Shown here piece after piece: positions 3-55,825 of a stretch of DNA of 64,000 nt (positions are counted from its first letter, which is position 1; the number at the start of each line of letters is the position of its first letter). A program made the position numbers and the translations under genes. This DNA comes from an uncultured bacterium (GTDB lineage: Bacteria; Fidelibacterota; UBA2242): assembly GCA_964589175.1 (NCBI GenBank), contig CAZPRY010000001.1, positions 56,253-120,252 of the forward strand, written 5' to 3'. The notes beneath the pieces are model-generated. The model ran no database searches and was not told where the DNA came from. It saw nothing but the letters and a program-made list of their open reading frames with translations.

Positions 3-368
3 TTCAACAAAATCAAATATCCTTATAATGTCAACGGCGTTACCCAGAAAATGGCCCTCGAAGCGTTGGGGAGAGAGGATTCGAAAAATTCCATGGTTGC
101 TGTGATTCTGGAGGAGAGAGTCAAATTGGCTCGGCGGCTGGCGGAGTTGGCCATTGTGGAAAAAGTGTTTCCGTCGGAAGCCAATTTTCTGTTGGCGCGC
201 TTCCGGAACGGACGGCGGGTTTTTGATTATTTGAAAACAAAGGAATTGATCGTTCGCGACCGGTCGCGCGTGATGCATTGCGCCGGCTGTCTGCGCATTA
301 CGGTTGGTACGCCCTCCGAAAACGCTGAACTCATGCAAATGTTACACGCATATAAAGGTGACGAATGA
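3..368 (+). CDS. hisC: Histidinol-phosphate aminotransferase, C-terminal fragment (5' end outside window)
   Basis: Open frame runs from the window edge with no stop between 3 and 50. The C-terminal sequence ([19 protein letters not shown]) is typical of class-II aminotransferase HisC. It overlaps hisB by 4 nt in an operon arrangement. Confidence 0.7.
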
Positions 369-1456
369 AAAAGGCACTTTTTATTGACAGGGACGGGACG
401 ATCATCATCGAGCCACCCGACGAACAGATCGATTCGCTGGAAAAATTAGAGTTCTATCCCGGGGCAATCACCGGGCTGGCGCGCATCGCCGCAGAGTTGG
501 ATTTCGAACTGGTCATGGTCAGCAACCAGGATGGACTGGGCACGGCTTCGTTTCCGGAAGAAAAGTTCTGGCCGGCGCACAATAAAATGCTCCGAACGCT
601 GGAGAATGAAGGCATCGTGTTTGCGGATATCCTGATCGACCGCAGCTTTCCGACCGATAATGCCCCGACCCGCAAACCGCGTACGGGGATGCTGACGAAA
701 TATATTCAGGGTGATTACGACCTCTCAAATTCGTTTGTTATCGGCGACCGCGCCACGGATGTGGAGTTGGCCCGTAACCTGGGCTGCCGGGCCATTTATC
801 TCGGTCAAAACGAGCAGATTTTCGCCGACCTGCAAAGCGCGGACTGGCACACGATTTTTGCTTTTCTGGCGGCGCAAGGCCGAACGGCGCAGGTCCACCG
901 CAAGACCAATGAAACCGATATTTCCATGAAGCTCGCATTGGACGGCCAGGGCAACGCCGGAATTGATACAGGGATCGGTTTTCTCGATCACATGCTTGAG
1001 CTTTTCACGAAGCATTCCGGCTGCGACATTTCCCTGGTCGCACGCGGCGACCTTGATGTCGACGAGCATCACACAGTTGAAGACGTCGCGCTGGTGCTGG
1101 GCGAAGGGTTTCTGAAAGCGCTGGGCGACAAACGCGGCATCGAACGCTATGGCTTCCTGCTGCCGATGGATGAAGCCCTGGCGCAGGTCGCGATCGATTT
1201 TTCGGGGCGCAGCGAACTGGTCTGGGCGGCTGAATTTACGCGCGAGTACGTGGGCAAAATGCCGACTGAACTCTTCCGGCATTTCTTCAAATCGTTCGCC
1301 GATACGGCTAAATGCAATCTCAATATCAAAGCCGAAGGCCGGAACGAACATCACAAAATTGAGGCTATTTTTAAGGCCGTGGCGCGGGCCGTAGGGATGG
1401 CCGTGCGGCGCGATCCGAACAGCCGCCAGGTTCCGAGCACCAAGGGGACATTATGA
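365..1456 (+). CDS. hisB: Bifunctional histidinol-phosphatase / imidazoleglycerol-phosphate dehydratase
   Basis: 363 aa. The N-terminus has a HAD motif ([10 protein letters not shown], histidinol phosphatase). The C-terminal half carries IGPD motifs ([26 protein letters not shown]). It is translationally coupled to hisC and hisH. Confidence 0.9.
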
Positions 1457-2034
1457 AAATTGCCGTGATTCAATACAATGCCGGCAATATCCATTCGGTG
1501 CGCATTGCGCTGCAGCGAATTGGGGTCGATCCGACCGTCACCGGCGATATAGAAGCCATTCGAAGTGCGGACAAAGTCATCTTTCCGGGCGTCGGCGAAG
1601 CTTCATCGGCGATGGCCTACATCCGGGCCAATGGCGTAGCGGATTTGCTGCCGACATTGCGGCAGCCGGTCCTGGGCATTTGCCTGGGCCTGCAGTTGAT
1701 GTGCAGTTATTCGGAAGAAAACGCTACGGGATGCCTTGGGATTTTCAATAACGCCGTGAAGAAATTCCCGCCGCAGGACAAGGTTCCCCACATGGGCTGG
1801 AACACCATTTCCGGTTTAAAAGGCGATCTTTTCAACGGCATCGAAACCGATGCGTACGTCTATTTTGTGCATAGCTATTACGCGGAAAAGAGCGTTGACA
1901 GCGCGGCGATTTCCGAATACATTCTGCCCTTTTCGGCTGCGCTGCAGAAGGACAATTTCTACGCCACGCAGTTTCATCCTGAAAAAAGCGGTTCGGTCGG
2001 AGAACGGATATTGAGGAATTTTTTAGCATTATGA
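1453..2034 (+). CDS. hisH: Imidazole glycerol phosphate synthase, glutamine amidotransferase subunit
   Basis: 193 aa. Class-I GATase with a catalytic Cys in GICLGLQLM and the C-terminal HPEKS motif. Sits in the his operon. Confidence 0.9.
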
Positions 2035-2753
2035 TAACGATCATACCGGCAATCGACATTATTGACGGAAAGAGCGTGCGGCTGAGTAAAGGCGATTTTG
2101 CCACGCAGAAAGTGTACTACGAAAATCCGCTGGATGTGGCCAAACTGTTTGAGGATGCCGGTGTGCGCCGGCTGCACCTGGTGGATCTGGATGGCGCCCG
2201 CAGCAAGCAGGTCGTGAACTGGAAAGTGCTTGAACGCATTGCCTCACAAACGAACCTGGTAATTGACTTCGGCGGCGGCGTGCAGTCGGACGATGATCTG
2301 CGCATCGTCTTTGAGGGCGGCGCTGCAATGGTGACGGCCGGCAGCATCGCAGTTAAAAATCCGGACAAGGTGCGGGCCTGGTTGCAACAATACGGCGGGG
2401 GAAAGATCATTTTGGGCGCTGATGTCCATGGCCGGCAAATCGCAATCCACGGCTGGCAGGAGGCCTCGGACGTCGATCTGTTTGATTTTCTTGAGAATTA
2501 CCGAAAGGCGGGCGCGCGGCAGGTGATCTGTACCGACGTGAGTAAAGACGGGATGCTGGCCGGGCCGGCGTTTGAATTGTACCGTGAAACTAAAGCGAAG
2601 CAGCCGGATTATTACCTGATTGCAAGCGGCGGCGTGAGCAAGATGGAAGACGTGGAGCGTCTGAACGACGACGGCATCGACGCCGTGATTATCGGCAAAG
2701 CAATCTACGAAGGCCGCATTCACCTGGCGGATTTGGAGGGATTCTTATGTTAG
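2031..2753 (+). CDS. hisA: ProFAR isomerase (HisA)
   Basis: 240 aa. N-terminus [15 protein letters not shown] and a C-terminal SGGV motif are typical of HisA. Overlaps hisH and hisF. Confidence 0.9.
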
Positions 2754-3502
2754 CAAAACGGATTGTACCTTGTCTGGATATAAAAGACGGGCAGACGGTC
2801 AAGGGTGTGAATTTTATTAACATCCGGCATGCCGGCGATCCCTTGGAATTGGGCGCGGCTTATGCCCGACAGGGCGCCGACGAACTGGTGTTCCTGGACA
2901 TCACGGCTTCGGTGGAAAAACGCCGGACCTTTGCCGAACTGGTGAAGCAGATTGCGCTGCATCTGAATATCCCGTTCACAGTCGGCGGCGGGATCCGCAA
3001 CGAGGACGACGTGGCGCGCCTGCTGGATGCCGGGGCCGACAAAATTTCGATCAATACATCCGCGGTCAATCATCCGCAAATGGTGGAGAAACTGGCGAAG
3101 CGCTTCGGCAGCCAGTGCGTTGTGGTGGCGATTGACACCCGGCATACGGAAACCGGGGACATCGTCTACATCCATGGCGGCCGCACGCCAACCGAGCGTA
3201 TCACACAGCAATGGGCGCGTGAAGTGGTTGAACGCGGCGCGGGGGAAATCCTGCTCACGTCCATGGATCATGACGGCACGAAGAACGGCTTTGCGCTGGA
3301 GATCACGCGCGAGCTATCGGAAATGTTGCCGATCCCGATTATCGCTTCGGGTGGCGCGGGAACGAGGGAGCATTTCGCGGAGGTGTTCCGGGAGGGCAAA
3401 GCCGATGCGGCTTTAGCGGCGAGCGTTTTCCATTTCGGTGAAATCCCGATCCCGGATTTGAAGCAATACTTGAAAAACGAAGGAATAGAGGTGCGGCTGT
3501 GA
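2747..3502 (+). CDS. hisF: Imidazole glycerol phosphate synthase, cyclase subunit
   Basis: 251 aa. N-terminus [12 protein letters not shown] and the motifs GADE and ASGGAG identify the HisF TIM barrel. Confidence 0.92.
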
Positions 3503-4092
3503 ATATCGATTTTGACAAAGGCGATGGGCTGGTCCCGGCGATTGTGCAGGATGCCGGGACGGGCAAGGTTCTGATGCTGGGCTATATGAACAAAGAGGCC
3601 CATGAAAAGACACGCAAAACACGTAATGTGACCTTCTTTAGCCGGTCGCGCCAGGAGCTGTGGACCAAGGGCGAAACCTCCGGTAATTATCTGCTTGTAA
3701 AGGAAATTCGGGTCGATTGCGACGGCGATACGCTGCTGATTAAAGCGGAACCCACCGGGCCGACCTGTCACACCGGCAGTGATACCTGTTTCGAAGAAAT
3801 CAATGCGGCCCCCAAGCCGTTTCTGTGGGAACTCGAAAGTGTCATCGCCGACCGGAAAGCCAATCCCACTCCGGAATCCTATACCTGTAAACTGTTCGAA
3901 AAGGGGACCAAAAAAATCGCCCAGAAAGTCGGCGAAGAGGCCACCGAAGTCGTAATCGATGCCGTGGCGAATGACATCCCACGCCTGCAGGAGGAGGTCG
4001 CCGATCTGCTCTATCACCTGCTGGTTTTACTGGCCGAAAAAAATATCTCGCTGGACGAGATTATGACGGTGCTGGAGAAGAGGCATAAATAA
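3499..4092 (+). CDS. hisI: Bifunctional phosphoribosyl-AMP cyclohydrolase / phosphoribosyl-ATP pyrophosphatase
   Basis: 197 aa. The HisI part shows LVPAIVQD...GYMNKEA...CDGD. The HisE part shows [10 protein letters not shown]...[11 protein letters not shown]. This is the last gene of the operon. Confidence 0.9.
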
Positions 4093-13325: not shown

Positions 13326-16307
13326 ATGAATTGTCGGCGGCTATACGGCCTTTTTTGCATTGCCCTGCTGTCCACGGCCATATCGAACGGCGGGACAACC
13401 GGTAAAATTGCCGGACGCATTACCGATTCCGCGACCGGCCAGGCCCTGATCGCGGCGAATGTCATTTTGATTGAAAGGATGGCCGATGGGCGGATGCTGC
13501 CGTTATCAGCCGCCCTTCAGCAGGGTGCGGCGTCCGATCTGAGCGGGGAATATTATATCATCAATATTCCGCCGGGAATGTATTCCGTGAAATTCAGCTA
13601 CATGGGCTATCAGTCGATTATCGTTCCGGACGTTCGCGTTTCTTCGGATTTGACCACGCGCATCGACCGGGAGCTGTCATCCACTATCATCGAGGCCGGA
13701 GAGGCCGTCGTCGTCACCGGGGAGCGGCGTGAAATCCAGAAAGATCTGACCTCTTCGCAGGTCAGCATTGGTGCCGACCAGATCGATGAAATGCCGGTCC
13801 GCTCCGTGCGCGACCTGCTTTCCCTGCAGGCCGGGGTGACCCTGGATGCCTCTGGAAACCTGCACATCCGCGGCGGCCGTTCGACGGAAATCACCTATAT
13901 GGTTGATGGTGTCCAGATTCTCGATCCGCTCAACCGCAGCTCCGGCATCAGCATCGACGACCAATCCATCGATGAGCTGAAGACCATCACGGGAACTTTC
14001 AACGCCGAGTACGGCCAGGCCCTCTCCGGGGTGGTCAACATCGTGACCAAGCAGGGCAGCGATCAATTCAAACTGAACCTGACCGGCTATTGCGGCGATT
14101 ACTACAGCCGAGACGCCGATGTTTATTACGTCATGGATAATCCCGAATGGGCCAATGCCGTGGTCCGCTATGCCACCGGGGCCGATGATAACCTGAATTA
14201 TGAATTTCCCAATTCGGAGGGCCTTCCGGATGCCGGATATATCGCGGAAAAATCTTATTTAACTCGCAAATCGTATCTCAGCAATTTTAATCCGCTTCAG
14301 GCGAAAGATGCCCAATTAAATGTCTCCGGACCAGTCCCGTTTACGAACGCCCGGCTGACCTACTACACTTCCGGCCGCTATAACTACAATCCCGGCTATA
14401 TTTACGGGGCGAGGTATTTTATGCCGTGGGGTTTCCAGTCCCCGGTTTCGGATACGCTCAACACCTTTCAAGCCGTCGATAACCGCCTGGTCGCGATGAG
14501 ATCCTATGAAGGTTATTCGACCAATTCCAAGTTAAACTATCGACTGACCAACGCCATCAACCTGAGTTACGGACTATATTACAACCATGATTCAGGGCAA
14601 TACGGCTACACACACAATTATAAATACGTTCCCGATGCCCAGCGCCAATACACAACCGATGCCTGGACGCATATCTTTTCCTTAAAGCATTCCCTGTCGC
14701 CTAGAACCTTTTACGATTTCAAGGTGAGTCTGTACAATAAGGACCACGCCAATTACCGCTACAAAGATCCCGAAGACTATCGCTATATGCCGACGGAATC
14801 CAGCGATTTTGAGCTCTATGTTTTCGGGTATGAGAATCAGGAAGACATCTCGATGTGGTCCAATTCCTACGATTTCCGCTACTGGGGCAACCCGGTTAGT
14901 TATGGCATCACCGATGTCAAATTTCAATCGTATAAACTGGATATGACCAGCCAGCTTACGAAGCGCCATTTGATGAAATGGGGAGGCAATGTTACCCGCC
15001 ACGAGCTCTTCTACGACCAGTTTGAGATTCAGTTTTCGAGCAACGATTACCGTCCCTATGTACCCGGCGATAATTCACCTTACCATGTAAAATACAAGGC
15101 CTCGCCGCGCGAAATGGCCGCCTATGTCCAGGACAAGATCGAATTTGAAGAGTTGATTATTAATTTCGGTGTGCGTTTCGATTATTTCGATTCCGGCGGG
15201 CGGATTTTGATCGATCCCAAGGACCCGCAAATCTACGATCCGTTCAAGCTGGAGCATATCTATAAAAATTACAGCCAAACCACGCCGGACAGCGATCTGG
15301 TCGACTACAGCGTGGCCGAACGCGAGGAATTCTGGTACGCGAACGCCTCGTCGAAATACCAGGTCAGCCCGCGCTTCGGACTCTCTTTCCCGATCACCGA
15401 ACGGGGCGTTATTCACTTCTCTTACGGTCATTTTTTCCAGAATCCCGAATTCCGATTTTTATACGACAATCCGAATTTCTGGATTGAAGGCGCCGGTGCG
15501 GAGAACCTGGTGGGCAATGCCGATCTGAATGCCGAGCGGACGGTGATGTACGAACTCGGCCTGCAGCAGCAATTGCGTCAGAACATTTACCTGCACATCA
15601 CCGGTTTTTACCGGGACATTCGCGACTGGATCGGTACCGGTACGCCGATTGACACTTACCGGGGTATCACCTATTACCGCTATGAGAATAAGGATCACGC
15701 CGCCGCGAAGGGCATAACCCTCTCGGGAAAAGCCAATTTCGGGCATCTTATGCTCAACCTGGATTATACGTATATGACGGCCCAGGGGACCTCGTCCGAT
15801 CCCAAAGACGCCTATAACGATTCGCAGGCCGACCGGGCGCCGCGCCTGACTTTTATTAATCTGAACTGGGACCAGCGCCATTCGATTAGCGCTGTCCTGA
15901 ATTATACCGTTAAGCAATGGTCGCTGACCATGACGGGCAGCGCCAATTCGGGCTTTCCATATACACCTGAGTTTGCCCGGGGCGAAGTGTCGGGTTCGGG
16001 TACTTTCATCGGATTGACCGAAAACAGCGCCCGCAAGCCCTGGACCAGCAACGTGGACCTGCGTATTTCACGGACCATTAACATCGGAACAACCCGCGTT
16101 TCGGCCTTTCTGAATATTCGCAATCTCTTCGACCGGCGCAATGCGAATAACGTCTATTCTGATACCGGTCTGGCCGATTATACCATGCAGGGAATTACGC
16201 AGAAAGACCGGTTTCTGGAAATATCCAATGTGGATGATTACTACAATAATCCGAATTATTACAGCCCGCCGCGCTTTATCCAGTTCGGGCTGCGGATCGG
16301 ATTATGA
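13326..16307 (+). CDS. TonB-dependent outer-membrane receptor with N-terminal carboxypeptidase-regulatory-like domain
   Basis: 993 aa. Has a signal peptide and a CarbopepD_reg-like domain (GKIAGRITDSATGQAL...GEYYIINIPPGMYSVKFSYMGY). The plug motifs are DEMPVRSVRDLLSLQAGV...NLHIRGGRS, followed by a C-terminal beta-barrel. No SusD-like partner follows. Confidence 0.8.
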   Translation: MNCRRLYGLFCIALLSTAISNGGTTGKIAGRITDSATGQALIAANVILIERMADGRMLPLSAALQQGAASDLSGEYYIINIPPGMYSVKFSYMGYQSIIVPDVRVSSDLTTRIDRELSSTIIEAGEAVVVTGERREIQKDLTSSQVSIGADQIDEMPVRSVRDLLSLQAGVTLDASGNLHIRGGRSTEITYMVDGVQILDPLNRSSGISIDDQSIDELKTITGTFNAEYGQALSGVVNIVTKQGSDQFKLNLTGYCGDYYSRDADVYYVMDNPEWANAVVRYATGADDNLNYEFPNSEGLPDAGYIAEKSYLTRKSYLSNFNPLQAKDAQLNVSGPVPFTNARLTYYTSGRYNYNPGYIYGARYFMPWGFQSPVSDTLNTFQAVDNRLVAMRSYEGYSTNSKLNYRLTNAINLSYGLYYNHDSGQYGYTHNYKYVPDAQRQYTTDAWTHIFSLKHSLSPRTFYDFKVSLYNKDHANYRYKDPEDYRYMPTESSDFELYVFGYENQEDISMWSNSYDFRYWGNPVSYGITDVKFQSYKLDMTSQLTKRHLMKWGGNVTRHELFYDQFEIQFSSNDYRPYVPGDNSPYHVKYKASPREMAAYVQDKIEFEELIINFGVRFDYFDSGGRILIDPKDPQIYDPFKLEHIYKNYSQTTPDSDLVDYSVAEREEFWYANASSKYQVSPRFGLSFPITERGVIHFSYGHFFQNPEFRFLYDNPNFWIEGAGAENLVGNADLNAERTVMYELGLQQQLRQNIYLHITGFYRDIRDWIGTGTPIDTYRGITYYRYENKDHAAAKGITLSGKANFGHLMLNLDYTYMTAQGTSSDPKDAYNDSQADRAPRLTFINLNWDQRHSISAVLNYTVKQWSLTMTGSANSGFPYTPEFARGEVSGSGTFIGLTENSARKPWTSNVDLRISRTINIGTTRVSAFLNIRNLFDRRNANNVYSDTGLADYTMQGITQKDRFLEISNVDDYYNNPNYYSPPRFIQFGLRIGL

Positions 16308-26946: not shown

Positions 26947-28560
26947 ATGAAGCGACGTGAATTCTTATCGCAGGTGGGTAAGAGCGTCGGCGGCGCGTGC
27001 CTGCTGCCTTTGATGTCCAATCTTTGCCGCTGCAGTGCCGGTCCAGCAAAAAAACAAAATGTCTTGTTCATTATTCTGGAAGATTTGAATACACAACTGG
27101 GCTGCTACGGCCGGCCGTATATGCATACGCCCAATATCGATCGTCTGGCCGGGGAAGGGATTTTGTTTAAGCGCGCCTATGTCCAGCAGGCCGTGTGCGC
27201 CGCCTCGCGTGCCAGCCTGTTTACCGGTTTGCATCCGGAATCGACCGGCGTCGATTACCCCTACAGTTACTATTTTGTCGAGGAGCTTTTGCCCAAATAC
27301 GGGACCCTGGCCCGGCAGTTTTTCAGGCACGGTTATTACACGCGGGATTTCAGCAAAATCCATCACGGCATTGTGGAAGACGATCTTTCCGCGCCGCACT
27401 TCGAGCCCCAATACCGGCCGTACATGCTTGCCGAAAACATCCGTCTCAGAGAAGAGAAGGGCAATTCGGCCACGCCGCCGTACGAGATGGCGGATTTGCC
27501 CGATGCCGAATATGCCGACGGACAGACAAGCGGGGCGGTGATCTCGGCCCTGCAGCTTGCCGCCCGGAGTGATGCACCGTTTTTCTTCTCGGTTGGATTT
27601 CTGAAACCGCATATTCCTTTCAATTCCCCCAGGAAATACTGGGATTTATACGAGCGCGAATCCATTCCACTAGCCGGGAACAAAGACCGCCCGGTGAATT
27701 TCCCGCCGATTGCCATGGATCGTTACAACCTGAAGCAATACACCTGGGAACACGACGATCCCGAGCGGCTGTTCAGCGATGATTATGCCCGCCTCATTCG
27801 TCATGCCTATTTCGCCTGCGTGAGCTTCATCGACGCGCAGATCGGGCGGATTCTTAATGAGTTGGATCGGTTGAAATTGCGGGAGAATACGACTGTCATT
27901 TTCCTGTCCGATCACGGCTTTCATCTGGGCGAGCAGAATCATTGGGGTAAAACGACCTTGTACGAGGCTTCGCTGCATGTTCCGCTTATCGTTTCAGTGC
28001 CGGGCATGAAGCTAAAGGGCGCTACCTGCAACGGACTGGTTGAATACGTGGACATCTACCCGACGTTGCTGGATCTGGCCGGAATTGAAATTCCCGATCA
28101 GGTTGAAGGTGTTAGTTTCAGGCCGCTGCTCGAAGAACCGTCGCGTAGGTGGAAGAGGGCGGCTTTCAGCCAACAGAGCCGCAGCATGATCGGTGAGAAA
28201 TACGGATTTTCGATGCGCACCGACCGCTATCGCTATACGGAGTGGAAGGAAGTCCTGCTGAACACAGTCCTGGCCCGTGAGTTGTACGATCTGGAGAACG
28301 ATCCCGATGAGACGATCAATATCGCCGGTCAATCGCGACCCGATTTGATCGATGTTTTATCACAACAACTGAAATCCGGCTGGCGCGGCGCTCTGCCGGA
28401 TGGTATCCGCAACCGCTCCGCCAATCCGCCGGCGCCGCCGGCCTATCCCTGGGGGCCTGAAGGGCAAAGTCGCCGCGATGTCTGGCATCGGAAATACGGC
28501 GGGAAAGAGGGCGACGACTGGCGGGAACTGACCCGCATTCGGATCGCACAAGACGCGTAA
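26947..28560 (+). CDS. Sulfatase (formylglycine-dependent arylsulfatase family), TAT/Sec exported
   Basis: 537 aa. The N-terminus has RREFL, and the sulfatase signature is CAASRASLFTG (the C-x-A-S-R FGly motif). The fold runs through FLSDHGFHLGE. Confidence 0.85.
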   Translation: MKRREFLSQVGKSVGGACLLPLMSNLCRCSAGPAKKQNVLFIILEDLNTQLGCYGRPYMHTPNIDRLAGEGILFKRAYVQQAVCAASRASLFTGLHPESTGVDYPYSYYFVEELLPKYGTLARQFFRHGYYTRDFSKIHHGIVEDDLSAPHFEPQYRPYMLAENIRLREEKGNSATPPYEMADLPDAEYADGQTSGAVISALQLAARSDAPFFFSVGFLKPHIPFNSPRKYWDLYERESIPLAGNKDRPVNFPPIAMDRYNLKQYTWEHDDPERLFSDDYARLIRHAYFACVSFIDAQIGRILNELDRLKLRENTTVIFLSDHGFHLGEQNHWGKTTLYEASLHVPLIVSVPGMKLKGATCNGLVEYVDIYPTLLDLAGIEIPDQVEGVSFRPLLEEPSRRWKRAAFSQQSRSMIGEKYGFSMRTDRYRYTEWKEVLLNTVLARELYDLENDPDETINIAGQSRPDLIDVLSQQLKSGWRGALPDGIRNRSANPPAPPAYPWGPEGQSRRDVWHRKYGGKEGDDWRELTRIRIAQDA

Positions 28561-45939: not shown

Positions 45940-45976
45940 AACGGCCGCCGGCATTTTATCGACGGCCGTTTTTTAT
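45940..45976 (+). terminator. Rho-independent terminator after the 615-aa gene
   Basis: An 8-bp perfect GC-rich stem (AACGGCCG / CGGCCGTT) with a 15-nt loop, followed by TTTTTTAT. Confidence 0.6.
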
Positions 45977-46043: not shown

Positions 46044-46700
46044 ATGGACGTAATCTACGAGGACAATCATCTGCTGGTGCTGCGCAAACCCGCGGGCGTT
46101 CTGGTTCAGGGCGACCGGACCGGGGACATCTCCCTGCTCGCGATGGCCAAAGAATATATCAAGGAGAAGTACCAGAAACCGGGCGAAGTGTACCTGGGGC
46201 TTGTGCATCGCCTGGACCGACCCGTGTCCGGTGTTGTCGTTCTTGCGCGGACTTCCAAAGCCGCCAGCCGGCTGTCCGAGCAGTTTAAAAAGCGTGAAAT
46301 CCGCAAAATTTACTGGGCCCTGGTCGAAGGCAAAGTGCCGGAAACGGGAATTTTTCACGACCAAGTGCGGCGCGGCGGACACCGCAGCCGGGTGCTTGAT
46401 GATGCCGAAGAAGGCCAGAGCGCCCGCCTAAATTACCGCTTATGCAAATATACGGGCGGCATTTCCTGGGTTGAGATTGATCTGGGTACCGGCCGCCATC
46501 ACCAGATTCGGGCCCAGTTTGCGCATCGCGGTTTTCCGCTGCTGGGCGATTTCCGCTACGGATCACACATAAAATTTCCCGAACGTTCGATTGCCCTGCT
46601 GGCCCGTTCGATCACGGTCAGTCATCCGGTTTTGCATGAGGAAATGACCTTCACTGCCGAGCCGGAAGATTACTGGCAGCCGCAATTCAGAGCCCAATAG
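46044..46700 (+). CDS. rluA: RluA-family pseudouridine synthase (catalytic domain only, no S4 domain)
   Basis: 218 aa. The catalytic Asp motif is HRLDRPVSGVVVLARTSKAASRL, and the N-terminus reads YEDNHLLVLRKPAGVLV. Confidence 0.8.
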   Translation: MDVIYEDNHLLVLRKPAGVLVQGDRTGDISLLAMAKEYIKEKYQKPGEVYLGLVHRLDRPVSGVVVLARTSKAASRLSEQFKKREIRKIYWALVEGKVPETGIFHDQVRRGGHRSRVLDDAEEGQSARLNYRLCKYTGGISWVEIDLGTGRHHQIRAQFAHRGFPLLGDFRYGSHIKFPERSIALLARSITVSHPVLHEEMTFTAEPEDYWQPQFRAQ

Positions 46701-46704
46701 TGCG

Positions 46705-47670
46705 ATGAAGTTTAAAAATATAATACAGATTGCCGGAATTATCGATCAGCCGGAAGCCGATTTGCTGATGCAATGCGGTGTCGAGTGGCTGGGCTTTCCG
46801 CTGCGCCTGTCCGTGAACCGGGAAGACCTAAGCGAGGACGAAGCGGCGGTTGTCATCCGGAATATTCCCAGTCCGCATGTCCCTGTTTTAATTACTTACC
46901 TGGATCGCGCTGCCGATATTGCCGAATTTTGCGGGCGGCTCGGCGTCGGCATGGTGCAGCTCCACGGAGCAATTGCCATTTCCGAGATTACCGAACTGAA
47001 AAGCATTGCGCCGTCGTTGCAGATCATCAAAAGCCTGATCGTCAGGGGCGATAATCTTGCGCAATTGCTCGAAGCGCTGGTCGACTATGCACTCTATGTG
47101 GACGCTTTCATCACCGATACTTTCGACCCGGCGACGGGCGCCAGCGGTGCGACCGGGAAAGTGCACGACTGGTCGATCAGCCGTGAACTGGTGGAGAATT
47201 CGAGCAAGCCGATCATCCTGGCCGGCGGTTTAACGCCCGAGAATGTCCGTGCGGCGATCCTGTCAGTTCGTCCGGCGGGTGTCGATGCGCACACCGGCGT
47301 GGAAGCCCTGAACGGCCGCAAAGGCCCTGAGCGCGTCTGGCGTTTTGTTACCGAGGCACGGGAGGCCTTCAGGCAACTGGAGCGTGACGAAGAGTACGAC
47401 AACGATATTGATCCGGAAGTGCCGGTGGACGGCGTGCTTGACCTGCACACTTTCAGCCCCAAAGAGGTCAAAGACCTCGTGCCGGAATATATCCGGGCTT
47501 GCCGGGAGAAGGGCATTTATCAAATCCGCATCATCCACGGCAAAGGCACCGGAACCCTGCGGCGGACGGTGCAGGCCCTTCTGGATCGCTCGACGGAAGT
47601 GGAGTCGTATGCAACGGCCGACGGGCCCGGAGGCGGTTGGGGCGCCACGCTTGTCGTGTTGCGCCGGTGA
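46705..47670 (+). CDS. Fusion protein: N-terminal phosphoribosylanthranilate isomerase (TrpF) domain + C-terminal Smr (small MutS-related nuclease) domain
   Basis: Residues 1-~215 show TrpF-like motifs (IQIAGI, VQLHG, GASGATGKVHDWS, ILAGGLTPENVRAAILSVRPAGVDAHTGVEALNGRKG). Residues ~245-321 form a canonical Smr domain (VLDLHTF...IRIIHGKGTGTLRRTVQALL...GGGWGATLVVL). It starts 4 nt after the rluA stop. No other trp genes are in the window. Confidence 0.75.
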   Translation: MKFKNIIQIAGIIDQPEADLLMQCGVEWLGFPLRLSVNREDLSEDEAAVVIRNIPSPHVPVLITYLDRAADIAEFCGRLGVGMVQLHGAIAISEITELKSIAPSLQIIKSLIVRGDNLAQLLEALVDYALYVDAFITDTFDPATGASGATGKVHDWSISRELVENSSKPIILAGGLTPENVRAAILSVRPAGVDAHTGVEALNGRKGPERVWRFVTEAREAFRQLERDEEYDNDIDPEVPVDGVLDLHTFSPKEVKDLVPEYIRACREKGIYQIRIIHGKGTGTLRRTVQALLDRSTEVESYATADGPGGGWGATLVVLRR

Positions 47671-53887: not shown

Positions 53888-54544
53888 ATGCGCATTACTC
53901 ACGAATTCCGAAAAACGGCGGTTGTGCTTACTTTCCTTCTTTTGGGTTTACTGGCCTGTTCGGGGCAGCCGGAGTCGGATTTTGTCGAACTGGTGGACGT
54001 GATCCCGGATGTCGTGCTCGATATTCGCTATGCCACCGAAAACAATTTTGTCGGCGAAGTGCTCTATCCGTCGGCGCGCTGTTTTCTGATGCGCGAGCCG
54101 GCCCTGGCGCTGGCCAAAGTCCAGGACGATCTGAAATCCCGGGGCTACCAATTGAAAGTATACGACGGTTATCGTCCGCTCTCGGTGCAAAAGCGCATGT
54201 GGGAAATCCTGCCCGACTCGCGCTATGTGGCCGACCCCGCCACCGGATCGATGCACAACCGCGGTTATTCGGTTGATGTGGCTCTGCTGGACAGCGCTGG
54301 TAATGAACTGCTGATGCCGACGCCTTTCGATGATTTTACCGAAGCCGCGCGGCAGGATAATATGGATTTACCCGAAGACGCCATCCGCCATCGCGCGATT
54401 CTGCGCACGGCCATGGAGAAACAGGGCTTCTCGATCATCGATACGGAATGGTGGCACTATAATTACCGGGGCGCCAGGGACAAACCGGTTCTGGATGTAT
54501 CGCTCGACGATTTGGTAGCAGCCCAAAAGAGCATCAAAAAGTAA
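53888..54544 (+). CDS. ddpX: D-alanyl-D-alanine dipeptidase (peptidase M15D, VanX/DdpX family)
   Basis: 218 aa with a signal peptide. The VanX motifs are DIRYATENNF, SMHNRGYSVDVAL and EWWHYNY. Confidence 0.85.
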   Translation: MRITHEFRKTAVVLTFLLLGLLACSGQPESDFVELVDVIPDVVLDIRYATENNFVGEVLYPSARCFLMREPALALAKVQDDLKSRGYQLKVYDGYRPLSVQKRMWEILPDSRYVADPATGSMHNRGYSVDVALLDSAGNELLMPTPFDDFTEAARQDNMDLPEDAIRHRAILRTAMEKQGFSIIDTEWWHYNYRGARDKPVLDVSLDDLVAAQKSIKK

Positions 54545-54571
54545 ATCTCGTAAAATTCAAGGAAATATAAG

Positions 54572-55825
54572 ATGAGCGCAAAGAGGATTTTTATCGCCAC
54601 AGTATGCCTGCTGCTGGGATTGTTTGAGTTCGCCTGCGATTCGGCGCGCCCGGCCACCCGTCTGCGCCTGGGGCACCCGGTTGAAGTGGGCATGGATGCG
54701 GCGCGCTTGGACCGGATCGGGGATGTCATTCGTGAAGATATTGCGGCTGGTAAATTGCCCGGCGCGACAGTGGTGGTCGGTCGAAAAGGAACGATTGTGT
54801 ATAGTGAGGCTTTCGGCAATGCGCAACTGGTTCCCGAGCCGGAGCCGATGACGATCAATAAGATTTTCGATATGGCTTCGGTTTCCAAGCCGGTCGCTAC
54901 TGCGACATCCGTGATGATCCTGGTCGAGGAGGGCAAAATCCGCCTGATGGACCCGGTGAACCTGTACATCCCCGAATTTCGGAATTATACAGACCGTGAT
55001 GGCAACGAGGAGGTGATCCGCATCTTCCACCTGCTGACGCATACATCCGGCCTGCCGCCGTACACCGATGCGCCGCCGCTGCGAGAGAAATACGGTGCGC
55101 CCTGCCCGGAGCAGGTGATTCAAACCATTGCGGCGCTGGACAGGACTTGCCCGCCCGGTACGGAATTTCACTACAGCTGCCTGGGCTTTATTACGCTGGC
55201 GGAGATCGTTCATCGCGTTTCCGGCCAGACGATTGATGCCTTTACGCGGGATCGGATTTTCATACCGCTGGGCATGAAAAGCAGCACCTACTGCCCGCCC
55301 GATTCCTGGAAACGTTGGATCGTTTCTACGGAAGTTTTCGACGGCCAGCCTCTGCGGGGATTCGTGCACGATCCGCTGGCCCAACTGATGGACGGCAAAT
55401 CCGGCAACGCCGGGCTGTTTTCATCGGCCTACGATCTGGCCATCTTCTGCCAGATGCTGCTGAATGGCGGCAGCTATGGTGATGTGCGCATTCTATCCCC
55501 CCTGACGGTCAAAGCCATGACGACGGTCTATGAGCCGCTGGCCTTTGCCGGTCGCGGATTGGGCTGGGACGTGCGTTCGGATTATTCCTCCAATCTGGGC
55601 GATATCTTCCCGGTCAGTTCCTTCGGCCATACCGGCTTTACCGGCACTTCCATCTGCATTGACCCGGGCACACAGACCTTCGTGATTTTATTGACGAATC
55701 GGGTTCACATGCCTGATGGAAGCGTCATCCCGTTGCGCAGTAAAGTCGCCAACATCGTGGCGGCCAGCATTGTCGATCCGGGAGTGCTATCCCTGAAGAA
55801 CCGGGTGCTGGGAATCCTGCAATGA
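54572..55825 (+). CDS. Class-C beta-lactamase-like serine hydrolase (second copy)
   Basis: 417 aa with a signal peptide. The S-x-x-K motif is MASVSKPVA and the KTG-like motif is GHTGFTGTS. Confidence 0.75.
   Translation: MSAKRIFIATVCLLLGLFEFACDSARPATRLRLGHPVEVGMDAARLDRIGDVIREDIAAGKLPGATVVVGRKGTIVYSEAFGNAQLVPEPEPMTINKIFDMASVSKPVATATSVMILVEEGKIRLMDPVNLYIPEFRNYTDRDGNEEVIRIFHLLTHTSGLPPYTDAPPLREKYGAPCPEQVIQTIAALDRTCPPGTEFHYSCLGFITLAEIVHRVSGQTIDAFTRDRIFIPLGMKSSTYCPPDSWKRWIVSTEVFDGQPLRGFVHDPLAQLMDGKSGNAGLFSSAYDLAIFCQMLLNGGSYGDVRILSPLTVKAMTTVYEPLAFAGRGLGWDVRSDYSSNLGDIFPVSSFGHTGFTGTSICIDPGTQTFVILLTNRVHMPDGSVIPLRSKVANIVAASIVDPGVLSLKNRVLGILQ

What the first reader, a model, noticed from the sequence alone, without database searches (positions are those of the whole stretch)
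46044..47670. Unusual TrpF-Smr fusion co-transcribed with an RluA-family pseudouridine synthase
A full PRA-isomerase-like TIM barrel is fused to a canonical Smr nuclease domain (LDLH...IIHGKGTG...). No other trp genes are nearby, so this is either a stand-alone trpF, as in some genomes, with an added nucleic-acid nicking domain, or a TrpF-fold domain repurposed, for example for phosphoribosyl or sugar-phosphate recognition. Smr proteins act in ribosome-collision rescue and DNA nicking. The 4-nt spacing from rluA suggests an RNA-related operon. I am not aware of this architecture being described.
Basis: partly seen in the sequence, partly recalled or inferred. Interest (0 to 1): 0.5.

Follow-up and report, generated by a model that had tools for sequence, protein, structure and literature searches.

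The report
Altered TrpF-like barrel fused to Smr
A marine bacterium carries a real, evolutionarily conserved gene that joins an RNA-cutting Smr domain to a look-alike of the tryptophan enzyme TrpF that has lost TrpF's key catalytic cysteine, pointing to an uncharacterised, widespread enzyme family that probably handles unusual nucleotides rather than making tryptophan.

Summary
[quoted passage not shown] It starts 4 nt after a 218-aa RluA-family pseudouridine synthase gene (46044-46700).

It is not an assembly artefact. The same fusion occurs in more than 55 protein clusters and at least 23 species genomes, nearly all Marinimicrobia. Two genomes carry the halves as adjacent separate genes.

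The barrel is not an ordinary TrpF. It belongs to a sharply defined, highly conserved paralogue family found in at least 580 species. In this family the catalytic Cys is invariably Ala, while the acid Asp and the phosphate loops are kept. The gene is never next to trp genes (0 of 81 loci).

On plasmids of Corynebacterium, Agrobacterium and Streptomyces, family members head indigoidine/minimycin-type C-nucleoside clusters that contain a pseudouridine-5'-phosphate-glycosidase homologue.

The Smr half matches a large family of stand-alone mini-Smr proteins and keeps the catalytic DxH and HGxG motifs.

My best reading is an RNA or modified-nucleotide processing protein, not a tryptophan enzyme. 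The chemistry is inferred, not shown. This is a new variant of known kinds and is moderately interesting.

The parts
46044..46700 (+). RluA-family pseudouridine synthase gene (218 aa, no S4 domain). The catalytic-Asp motif HRLD is at residues 55-58 (nt 46206-46217).
   Evidence: ORF. PF00849 E 2.7e-35. NCBIfam RluA subfamily 155 bits, below the 192.7 cut-off. Orthologue (53-61% id) directly upstream of the fusion gene in 13 Marinimicrobia loci. Motif coordinates.
46701..46704 (+). 4-nt spacer (TGCG) between the rluA-like stop codon TAG and the fusion gene's ATG. It implies co-transcription or translational coupling.
   Evidence: Sequence. Spacing in the 13 syntenic loci is -4 to +18 nt.
46705..47325 (+). 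A-type TrpF-like (beta/alpha)8 barrel, residues 1-207. Signature: Q8-x-A10-G11 (A10 = nt 46732-46734, replacing the catalytic Cys), PLRL 32-35, ITY 63-65, QLHG 85-88, ITDT 136-139 (D138 = general-acid position), GATGKVHDW 148-156, LAGGL 172-176, VDAHTGVE 193-200.
   Evidence: Pfam and NCBIfam. Alignment to 1NSJ/1LBM. Family alignment A1. Signature table for A-type against Cys-type. AF2 model. Foldseek. Coordinates.
47326..47433 (+). Connector, residues 208-243: a long helix (208-232) that also ends the stand-alone proteins, then a short acidic variable linker.
   Evidence: AF2 secondary structure, with a pLDDT dip to 72 around residues 231-240. Stand-alone homologues end at about residue 225-230. 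Variable-length gap region in A1.
47434..47670 (+). Mini-Smr domain, residues 244-321, plus the stop codon. DxH motif = D246-L247-H248 (nt 47437-47448 covers LDLH). HGxG = H278-G279-K280-G281 (within nt 47533-47553). GGWGAT at 310-315.
   Evidence: PF01713 full-length match. PDB MutS2 Smr 2ZQE E 1.4e-9. Both motifs conserved in all 27 aligned fusions. 60-74% identical to stand-alone 90-105-aa Smr proteins. Motif roles from Saito 2021 and Park 2023.
45941..45975 (+). Terminator-like hairpin (CGGCCG-N15-CGGCCG followed by a T-run) after the upstream 615-aa gene. It suggests that rluA plus the fusion gene form their own two-gene unit.
   Evidence: Read directly from the sequence. The automatic scanner did not call it, so this is weak evidence.

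Best explanation
SHOWN. The gene is a true, selectively maintained fusion of two modules, each of which exists as a conserved stand-alone protein in many bacteria.

Module 1 is an 'A-type' TrpF paralogue. It has a TrpF-fold barrel that keeps the ring-oxygen-protonating Asp (D138) and both phosphate-binding loops. The general-base Cys is replaced by Ala, and the family has acquired its own invariant residues (Q8, Y65, T137, T139, A149, H196, T197).

Module 2 is a mini-Smr endonuclease domain with intact catalytic DxH and RNA-contacting HGxG motifs.

In Marinimicrobia the fusion is usually translationally coupled to an RluA-type pseudouridine synthase.

INFERRED. The barrel is not the tryptophan-pathway PRA isomerase. 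It still binds a 5-phosphoribosyl group carrying a (hetero)aromatic aglycone, that is, a nucleotide-like and quite possibly C-glycosidic substrate resembling pseudouridine-5'-phosphate. It probably performs an acid-catalysed ring-opening step that does not need the Cys base.

MOST SPECULATIVE. In the fusion, the Smr module binds or cuts RNA, free or on ribosomes, and the tethered barrel processes a modified ribonucleotide released or exposed by that cut. Together with the co-transcribed Psi synthase this would form an RNA-modification/turnover or nucleotide-sanitising unit.
For: Real and conserved:
- Fusion proteins P0001-P0057 at 47-98% identity from independent assemblies.
- 23 fused species genomes.
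- Both halves are under constraint: median identity 54% for the barrel and 63% for Smr.
- Two genomes (L014, L050) encode the halves as adjacent separate genes.

Not a canonical TrpF:
- Cys7 of TmTrpF aligns to Ala10, and Asp126 to Asp138.
- Ala10 is invariant in alignment A1 and, by the grouping criterion, in the 57 full-length representatives classed as A-type, whereas the nearest 27 Cys-type TrpFs read K-x-C-G.
- The best NCBIfam TrpF equivalog scores 104 bits against a cut-off of 215.
- No trp gene is a conserved neighbour in 81 non-redundant loci or in three Pfam-annotated loci.
- Identity is 55-64% between phyla, which is unusually high for TrpF.

Nucleotide / C-nucleotide link:
- On 12 plasmids, bona fide A-type members (about 300 bits against the family HMM, full signature) occur. 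In all four plasmids inspected, from three genera, the gene heads a cluster of UPRTase, EamA transporter, IndC-like NRPS, tautomerase, IndA/PsuG-type C-glycosynthase (PF04227, E 1e-96 to 1e-110) and reductase, with PRPP synthetase in some.
- The characterised minimycin cluster has MinC/IndB where these clusters have the A-type gene.
- A trpF homologue is reported inside the showdomycin C-nucleoside cluster.
- One representative (P0135) is fused to an adenosine/nucleoside-kinase-like PfkB domain.
- Streptomyces already covers PRA isomerisation with PriA.

Smr competence:
- DxH is the catalytic motif and HGxG the RNA loop in SmrB and Cue2. Both are conserved in all 27 fusions and in the mini-Smr consensus.

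RNA context:
- The RluA-like gene lies directly upstream in 13 of 20 assessable fusion loci.
Against: - No biochemical data exist for any family member.
- The C-nucleoside context is confined to the plasmid clade. No PsuG, UPRTase, PfkB or Prs homologue lies within 10 kb of any of 87 chromosomal loci or in the window.
- Stand-alone A-type genes and stand-alone mini-Smr genes have no conserved neighbours and were never found next to each other outside Marinimicrobia.
- The rluA linkage is lineage-restricted and could be inherited gene order.
- The fused kinase is not specifically PsuK-like, and P0135 itself has Cys at position 10.
- Actinomycete TrpF homologues outside trp operons do complement E. 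coli delta-trpF. I could not determine whether those are A-type.
- An isolated Smr domain of SmrB does not bind ribosomes.
- Genome-wide co-occurrence with a canonical trpF could not be tested.
Confidence: 0.45

Rival explanations
1. It is a genuine tryptophan-pathway PRA isomerase (a stand-alone trpF that uses a different general base) that happens to carry an Smr domain in Marinimicrobia.
For: - Pfam PRAI match, and TrpF structures are the closest folds.
- The general-acid Asp, the QLHG motif and the phosphate loops are retained.
- Sources name the stand-alone forms 'phosphoribosylanthranilate isomerase'.
- TrpF homologues outside trp operons in Nonomuraea and Streptosporangium complement delta-trpF.
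- No other trpF was seen in the 64-kb window.
Against: - Ala at the general-base position is invariant. From the established literature (Henn-Sax et al. 2002, recalled from memory and not re-read here), Cys7 is the essential base.
- All TrpF equivalog models score far below their cut-offs.
- The gene is never adjacent to trp genes in 81 loci.
- It is present as an extra plasmid gene inside pigment / C-nucleoside clusters, including in Streptomyces, where PriA performs this step.
- Cross-phylum conservation is unusually high for a TrpF.
Confidence: 0.17
2. The barrel is an Amadori-type isomerase for a different phosphoribosylamine metabolite (for example a pterin/folate or flavin intermediate, as with Chlamydia TrpF). 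The Smr fusion and the rluA neighbour are incidental.
For: - Chlamydia TrpF, encoded away from trp genes, converts the RibA product to H2NMP.
- The family is an orphan single gene in most genomes, as expected of a housekeeping metabolic enzyme.
- The phosphate loops and the Asp are retained.
Against: - An Amadori rearrangement still needs a base to remove the C2' proton, and the usual one is missing.
- No folate, flavin or pterin genes are conserved neighbours.
- The fusion, the split adjacent genes and the long persistence of the fusion (47-65% identity) argue for a functional tie to Smr.
Confidence: 0.15
3. The barrel is a non-catalytic or regulatory ligand sensor (a phosphoribosyl or nucleotide signal) that gates partner effector domains. 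Here it would gate an Smr RNase acting as a stress, toxin or defence nuclease.
For: - The module is fused to very different partners: Smr, a GHKL-like ~380-aa domain in four representatives, an ABC ATPase, a SAM methyltransferase and a kinase.
- The canonical catalytic base has been lost.
Against: - Most members are stand-alone ~225-aa proteins.
- The invariant polar residues lie in the segments that align to TrpF's catalytic residues and phosphate-binding loops (Q8/A10 to Cys7, D138 to Asp126, H196-T197 in the beta8 loop), as in an enzyme.
- There is no defence-island context in the window, where the neighbours are envelope genes.
- No member was found on viral contigs.
- PADLOC was not scanned.
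Confidence: 0.1
4. The fusion is a sequencing or assembly frameshift that joined two genes.
For: Two related genomes do have the halves as separate genes.
Against: The ORF is continuous here and in more than 55 independent clusters and 23 species genomes from different projects and assemblers. The connector region is conserved.
Confidence: 0.01

Closest known systems
TrpF / phosphoribosylanthranilate isomerase (PF00697; T. maritima 1NSJ/1LBM)
   Same: Same (beta/alpha)8 fold (TM-score 0.83-0.90). Shares the general-acid Asp on beta6, the QLHG motif, the GG and xxGVE phosphate-binding loops and the xDW motif.
   Different: - The general-base Cys is Ala.
- Family-specific invariant residues: Q8, P32, Y65, T137, T139, A149, H196, T197.
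- Scores are about half of every TrpF equivalog cut-off.
- The gene is never in trp operons.
- Conservation across phyla is much higher than usual for TrpF.

SmrB / Cue2 / NONU-1-type Smr endonucleases (ribosome-collision mRNA cleavage)
   Same: Smr fold with intact DxH (D246, H248) and HGxG (H278-G281) motifs, the features tied to RNA cleavage and RNA contact.
   Different: There is no SmrB N-terminal uS2-binding hook, no KOW domain and no MutS2 ATPase. The three described bacterial clades do not include this architecture or the stand-alone ~95-aa mini-Smr family to which it is 60-74% identical. Ribosome binding is untested.
orf20 of Corynebacterium aurimucosum pET44827 and its counterparts in Agrobacterium vitis and Streptomyces plasmids (indigoidine / minimycin-type C-nucleoside clusters)
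   Same: Same A-type family: 45-50% identity, full signature and about 300 bits against the family HMM.
   Different: Those are stand-alone barrels inside an NRPS + IndA(PsuG-like) + UPRTase cluster. The window gene has no such neighbours and carries Smr. The role of orf20 has only been guessed at.
Chlamydia TrpF (promiscuous PRA isomerase recruited to folate synthesis) and PriA/AdeK recruitments
   Same: Precedents for TrpF- or HisA-type barrels, encoded away from trp genes, acting on other phosphoribosyl substrates, including in nucleoside-antibiotic clusters.
   Different: Those enzymes keep their catalytic base and retain isomerase activity. No Smr or nucleic-acid domain is attached.
PsuK-PsuG pseudouridine catabolism pair
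   Same: A thematic parallel only. A-type modules are found fused to a PfkB nucleoside-type kinase (P0135), next to PsuG-family C-glycosynthases (plasmids) and next to a Psi synthase (here).
   Different: There is no sequence relationship to PsuG. The fused kinase is closest to adenosine kinases, not to PsuK. No activity on pseudouridine-5'-phosphate has been shown.

Membership tests
TrpF / PRA isomerase (EC 5.3.1.24) | (beta/alpha)8 barrel matching PF00697 | tested here: met
   PF00697 E 1.5e-17, above the gathering score. Top Foldseek hits are all TrpF.
TrpF / PRA isomerase (EC 5.3.1.24) | General-base cysteine at the end of beta1 (Cys7 in T. maritima) | tested here: not met
   It aligns to Ala10. 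Ala is invariant in alignment A1 (38 sequences) and, by the grouping criterion, in the 57 full-length representatives classed as A-type.
TrpF / PRA isomerase (EC 5.3.1.24) | General-acid aspartate on beta6 (Asp126 in T. maritima) | tested here: met
   Asp138 within ITDT, present in 56 of 57 representatives.
TrpF / PRA isomerase (EC 5.3.1.24) | Score above a curated equivalog threshold | tested here: not met
   The best NCBIfam TrpF model, NF002298, scores 104 bits against a cut-off of 215. All 12 other TrpF models also fall below their cut-offs.
TrpF / PRA isomerase (EC 5.3.1.24) | Genomic association with other trp genes (typical of TrpF, not obligatory) | tested here: not met
   None in the window. 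None among the conserved neighbours in 81 loci. None in three Pfam-annotated loci.
TrpF / PRA isomerase (EC 5.3.1.24) | PRA to CdRP isomerase activity, or delta-trpF complementation | not testable with these tools
   This needs an enzyme assay or genetics. Published complementing actinomycete TrpFs could not be typed as A-type or Cys-type.
Smr domain nucleases (PF01713) | Full-length Smr domain match | tested here: met
   Model positions 1-77 of 77, E 3.9e-21. MutS2 Smr structure 2ZQE E 1.4e-9.
Smr domain nucleases (PF01713) | Catalytic DxH motif and (H)GxG RNA-contact loop | tested here: met
   D246-L-H248 and H278-G-K-G281. Both are conserved in all 27 aligned fusions.
Smr domain nucleases (PF01713) | Endonuclease activity or binding to collided ribosomes | not testable with these tools
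   Biochemistry or cryo-EM is required.
SmrB clade | N-terminal helical hook with the acidic '--xxxa' motif that binds uS2 | tested here: not met
   [quoted passage not shown] Clade definition.
MutS2 and KOW-Smr clades | MutS core/clamp/ABC ATPase and/or a KOW domain before Smr | tested here: not met
   Only the PRAI and Smr Pfam domains are found. Clade definitions.
RluA-family pseudouridine synthase (upstream gene) | PF00849 catalytic domain with the HRLD catalytic-Asp motif | tested here: met
   E 2.7e-35. HRLD at residues 55-58. The protein falls below every NCBIfam equivalog cut-off, so its RNA target is unassigned.
Indigoidine / minimycin-type C-nucleoside gene cluster | Co-location with an IndC-like NRPS, an IndA/PsuG-like C-glycosynthase and a UPRTase | tested here: not met
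   This holds for plasmid-borne family members. It does not hold for the window or for any of 87 chromosomal loci.

The most novel reading that the evidence does not exclude
A-type TrpF paralogues are a previously unrecognised enzyme class that acts on C-ribosyl-5'-phosphates such as pseudouridine-5'-phosphate. They would be an alternative to PsuG-type chemistry, used for salvage or 'sanitising' of modified nucleotides and co-opted by C-nucleoside antibiotic or pigment clusters. In Marinimicrobia this enzyme would be physically coupled to an active mini-Smr RNase and co-expressed with a Psi synthase. That would form a dedicated pseudouridine/RNA turnover module and a fourth functional type of bacterial Smr protein.
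Probability: 0.15. Interest if true: 0.8.

Novelty: new variant of a known kind. Interest (0 to 1): 0.55.

Why it matters
TrpF is a textbook model for (beta/alpha)8-barrel catalysis and enzyme evolution. A large, deeply conserved sister family that has lost the catalytic cysteine but kept the rest of the active site would be a natural experiment in how this fold is repurposed. It is currently mis-annotated as 'phosphoribosylanthranilate isomerase' in hundreds of genomes.

Published surveys of bacterial Smr proteins recognise three architectures. This fusion, and the abundant stand-alone mini-Smr it derives from, fall outside them. They offer a new handle on what Smr nucleases do beyond collision rescue.

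The recurrent presence of the same barrel at the head of indigoidine/minimycin-like clusters suggests an unassigned step or self-protection function in C-nucleoside biosynthesis. That can be tested directly in cultured Corynebacterium, Agrobacterium and Streptomyces strains.

Tried and rejected
1. Assembly artefact: rejected because the fusion recurs.

2. Conserved neighbourhood of the stand-alone A-type genes: unbiased clustering of ORFs within 6 kb in 81 loci found nothing conserved beyond the Marinimicrobia rluA. The next best was a generic SDR in 10 loci.

3. Neighbourhood of the stand-alone mini-Smr: three contexts looked at, and they vary (GDT1, a methyltransferase).

4. A 'triad' linking the barrel, Smr and a methyltransferase (P0124 fusion against the L091 operon): the two methyltransferases share only the SAM-binding motif. 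Rejected.

5. PsuK identity of the kinase fused in P0135: it is closest to adenosine kinases. This supports 'nucleoside-like' but not Psi-specific.

6. PsuG, UPRTase, PfkB or Prs near chromosomal family members: none.

7. Viral contigs: no family member.

8. Rfam: no known RNA element anywhere in the window.

9. Promoter/terminator scan: nothing above the shuffled expectation.

10. NJ tree to date the fusion: the internal branches are too short to decide between a single and multiple origins. The only safe points are that the family is separate from Cys-type TrpFs, that the plasmid copies form a clade, and that the split forms group together.

11. L066 as a third split form: the contig ends after an inserted unrelated ORF, so it is uninformative.

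12. Typing the complementing actinomycete TrpFs and the showdomycin-cluster trpF as A-type or Cys-type: no sequences were available in the paper or its supplement.

13. The ~380-aa partner domain of the 610-aa architecture: only a faint HATPase_c hit (E 0.04).

Full report
**1. What is there**

The window carries two same-strand ORFs at the stated coordinates. The first, 46044..46700, encodes 218 aa. The second, 46705..47670, encodes 321 aa. They are separated by four bases, TAG-TGCG-ATG.

Pfam assigns the first to PseudoU_synth_2 (E 2.7e-35). It assigns the second to PRAI (residues 41-216, E 1.5e-17) plus a full-length Smr domain (residues 245-320, E 3.9e-21), all above the gathering scores.

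An AlphaFold2 model built on a 38-sequence alignment is confident, with pLDDT 91 and pTM 0.79. It shows eight beta/alpha units (residues 6-207), a long helix (208-232), a short lower-confidence acidic linker and an alpha/beta Smr domain (244-319). Its nearest solved structures are all TrpF, with TM-score 0.83-0.90 on the target.

The RluA-like protein has the HRLD catalytic motif and lacks an S4 domain. A hairpin followed by a T-run after the upstream 615-aa gene suggests the pair is its own transcription unit, but the automatic scan did not call it.

**2. Not an artefact**

A search of 5.8 billion proteins returned the same PRAI+Smr architecture in P0001 (98% identity) and in P0002-P0057 (47-64% identity). 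These come from independent JGI, ENA, NCBI and Logan assemblies, and where named they are 'Smr/MutS family protein' from Marinimicrobia, Fidelibacterota or Aminicenantes.

A scan of one genome per species found at least 580 genomes encoding relatives. Among the best 80, 23 are fusions. Nearly all are Neomarinimicrobiota, plus one Aminicenantes bin and two bins labelled Bacteroidota and Eubacteriales.

Both halves are conserved across the fusions, with median identity 54% for the barrel and 63% for Smr. Two genomes (L014, L050) encode a 232-aa barrel followed by a separate 101-aa Smr gene, 18 and 313 nt downstream. That is an independent sign that the two modules belong together.

**3. The barrel is a distinct TrpF paralogue**

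In the HMMER alignment to T. maritima TrpF (1NSJ/1LBM), VKICGI aligns to IQIAGI. The general-base Cys7 is therefore Ala10. The general-acid Asp126 (ILLDT) aligns to Asp138 (FITDT).

In an alignment of 27 fusions and 11 stand-alone relatives, Q8, A10, G11, T64, Y65, Q85, H87, K109, S110, D138, G148-G151, H154, W156, A173-G175, N180, H196-G198, E200, G204 and K206 are invariant.

An exhaustive phmmer search of 1.84 billion cluster representatives, using residues 1-228, gave 112 hits at E <= 1e-30. Mapping key positions separates two groups:

| Feature | A-type group (57 full-length representatives) | Nearest Cys-type TrpFs (lower-scoring) |
|---|---|---|
| beta1 motif | Q-x-A-G | K-x-C-G |
| Position 32 | P32 | L32 |
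| Positions 63-65 | I-T-Y | V-T-H |
| Positions 137-139 | T-D-T | L-D-S |
| Positions 148-151 | G-A-T-G | G-G-T-G |
| Positions 194-198 | D-x-H-T-G | D-x-N-S-G |

Two representatives (P0130, P0135) have every A-type signature but carry Cys10 and Thr194.

All NCBIfam TrpF equivalog models score far below their cut-offs, the best being 104 bits against 215. Stand-alone members of 222-247 aa are 58-64% identical to the window protein. They occur in Ignavibacteria, Melioribacter, Calditrichia, Verrucomicrobiota, Latescibacterota, Poribacteria, Binatia, delta- and gamma-proteobacteria, Kiritimatiellia and Bacillota. That is much tighter conservation than is usual for TrpF; this last comparison rests on my own knowledge.

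**4. Genomic context**

Pfam-annotated loci for one fusion (P0026) and two stand-alone members (P0112, P0110) show no trp genes.

I clustered all ORFs within 6 kb of the gene in 81 non-redundant loci. The only strongly recurrent neighbour is the RluA-like gene. It is found in 13 loci, always directly upstream on the same strand and spaced -4 to +18 nt. All 13 are fusion-type Marinimicrobia loci. Of 20 fusion loci with enough upstream sequence, 13 have it and 7 do not. No stand-alone locus has it.

The window itself holds a his operon (365-4092), a polysaccharide-utilisation-like block, and envelope genes around the pair (NamZ, DUF2062, DUF748-like, DUF6588, Lgt, Aas-like). It has no second PRAI or Smr gene and no Rfam element.

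**5. The Smr half**

Searching with residues 227-321 alone returned a very large set of stand-alone Smr proteins of about 90-105 aa, at 60-74% identity. Where named they include Marinimicrobia and Nitrospinae proteins. Their consensus reproduces the motifs of the fusion's C-terminus: PIDGxLDLHTFxPREVKxLVPxYLxACRExGI..VRIIHGKGTGTLRR...GGWGATLV. Their neighbourhoods vary.

According to Saito et al. (bioRxiv 10.1101/2021.08.16.456513) and Park et al. (PMC10897456), bacterial Smr proteins fall into three clades: SmrB-like, MutS2-like and KOW-Smr. DxH is the catalytic motif and (H)GxG contacts RNA. SmrA and most MutS2 proteins lack DxH. An isolated SmrB Smr domain does not bind ribosomes.

The window protein has D246-L-H248 and H278-G-K-G281, and both are conserved in all 27 aligned fusions. 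By sequence criteria it is therefore a catalytically competent Smr domain, of an architecture outside the three described clades.

**6. A functional lead from plasmids**

A tblastn search of the barrel against 72,556 plasmids found 12 records with 45-50% identical homologues: six Streptomyces, three Agrobacterium vitis and three Corynebacterium. The three I translated carry the full A-type signature and score about 300 bits against the family HMM.

In all four plasmids inspected, from three genera, the gene is first in the same cluster:
- the A-type barrel
- a uracil phosphoribosyltransferase
- an EamA transporter
- an IndC/BpsA-like A-T-TE NRPS
- a small tautomerase
- an IndA-type 'pseudouridine-5'-phosphate glycosidase' homologue (PF04227, E 1e-96 and 1e-110)
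- an alkene reductase or NAD(P)H-binding protein
- in Streptomyces, a PRPP synthetase

This is a variant of the indigoidine/minimycin system described by Kong et al. (PMC6908994). In that system MinB (IndA-like) C-ribosylates the NRPS product with ribose-5-phosphate, MinC (HAD phosphatase + DUF4243) finishes the pathway and MinD (UPRTase) protects the producer. The plasmid clusters lack a MinC/IndB equivalent and carry the A-type barrel instead.

Trost et al. (PMC2830990) noted the pET44827 gene (orf20) and only guessed at its role. Rosas-Becerra et al. (PMC13055916) report a trpF homologue inside the showdomycin cluster, another PsuG-like C-nucleoside pathway. They also restate that most Actinomycetota rely on PriA, not TrpF.

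One further representative (P0135) fuses the module to a PfkB kinase closest to adenosine kinases. Other partners are a SAM methyltransferase, an ABC ATPase, a solute-binding protein, and a recurrent ~380-aa domain with a faint HATPase_c signal.

**7. Interpretation**

Shown:
- The fusion is real and conserved.
- The barrel belongs to a distinct TrpF-derived family that lacks the catalytic Cys.
- The Smr domain has intact catalytic motifs.
- The rluA operon is lineage-specific but tight.
- The family is recruited to C-nucleoside-type clusters.

Inferred: the barrel still binds a 5-phosphoribosyl group attached to an aromatic ring, because the phosphate loops, the acid Asp and the QLHG motif are retained. 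It no longer performs the Cys-dependent Amadori rearrangement of PRA. The contexts point to nucleotide-like, possibly C-glycosidic substrates related to pseudouridine-5'-phosphate.

Most speculative: in Marinimicrobia the Smr RNase and the barrel cooperate on RNA or on modified nucleotides, alongside the Psi synthase.

Against this reading:
- The C-nucleoside context is limited to one plasmid clade.
- Most family members are orphan genes.
- The fused kinase is not PsuK-like.
- TrpF homologues outside trp operons in some actinomycetes do complement delta-trpF, and I could not type them.
- Co-occurrence with a canonical trpF could not be tested.

I put about 0.45 on the overall explanation. Within it, roughly 0.75 goes on 'not the tryptophan enzyme' and about 0.15-0.25 on a pseudouridine-related substrate. 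The rivals are a true TrpF with a different base (0.17), another phosphoribosylamine isomerase with an incidental fusion (0.15), a ligand-sensing regulatory barrel (0.10) and an artefact (0.01).

**8. Novelty and verdict**

No paper in the searchable library combines an Smr domain with PRA isomerase, and none describes a Cys-less TrpF paralogue. Databases label the proteins 'Smr/MutS family protein' or 'phosphoribosylanthranilate isomerase'.

The finding is a new variant of known kinds: a new Smr architecture and an unrecognised TrpF-derived family. It is not a categorically new system.

Interest is moderate (0.55). It would surprise specialists in TrpF enzymology and in Smr-mediated ribosome rescue, and it is directly testable in cultured strains, but the function remains inferred.

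Noticed in passing
window 365-4092 (+): Complete-looking his operon segment: hisB (IGPD + HAD phosphatase), hisH, hisA, hisF, hisIE. The organism therefore has a normal HisA barrel. No trp genes are in the window.
   Followed up: partly
window 7386-28560: Polysaccharide-utilisation-like block. It has two LacI-type regulators (read by eye), several very large secreted proteins, a TonB-dependent receptor (13326-16307) and a sulfatase (26947-28560).
   Followed up: partly
window 53888-55825 (+); compare L001 9025-10867 and L011 11054-12910: A Peptidase_M15 / beta-lactamase-fold gene pair lies 6 kb downstream here. In other Marinimicrobia the same pair sits immediately downstream of the fusion gene on the opposite strand. 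This indicates a local rearrangement or insertion (DUF6588, Lgt, Aas-like genes) in this genome.
   Followed up: partly
window 45941-45975 (+): A palindromic CGGCCG...CGGCCG hairpin followed by a T-run, after the DUF748-like gene. It looks like an intrinsic terminator, but the scanner missed it because the loop is 15 nt.
   Followed up: no
L014 338-1360; L050 9983-11300: Marinimicrobia-related genomes in which the A-type barrel (232 aa) and the mini-Smr (101 aa) are separate adjacent genes. In L050 the 313-nt gap looks like an insertion.
   Followed up: yes
proteins P0126, P0127, P0134, P0159 (about 602-617 aa): A recurrent architecture: the A-type barrel plus a ~380-aa C-terminal domain with an 'SRIVYEAMTNAIRHP' N-box-like motif. 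The only Pfam signal is a faint HATPase_c hit (E 0.04). It may be a GHKL/anti-sigma-kinase-like partner and is uncharacterised.
   Followed up: partly
proteins P0130 and P0135: Two family representatives keep every A-type signature but have Cys at position 10 together with Thr instead of Asp at position 194. This may be a covarying pair that marks an intermediate or reverted active site.
   Followed up: no
L093 8992-17721, L094 8824-17630, L095 8998-18666, L096 7998-16666 (plasmids): A conserved variant of the indigoidine/minimycin cluster that lacks IndB/MinC. It includes the A-type barrel, an alkene reductase and sometimes a PRPP synthetase. Its product and the barrel's role are unknown.
   Followed up: partly
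proteins P0269-P0388; loci L088-L092: A very large, highly conserved family of stand-alone ~95-aa Smr proteins with DxH and HGKG motifs. It does not fit the three published bacterial Smr clades. In L091 one is followed, 4 nt downstream, by a SAM methyltransferase.
   Followed up: partly
L066 6655-7034: A small ORF that looks like a four-helix-bundle protein (judged by eye from the translation, no profile run) is inserted just downstream of a Marinimicrobia stand-alone A-type gene. The contig ends before any Smr gene could be seen.
   Followed up: no
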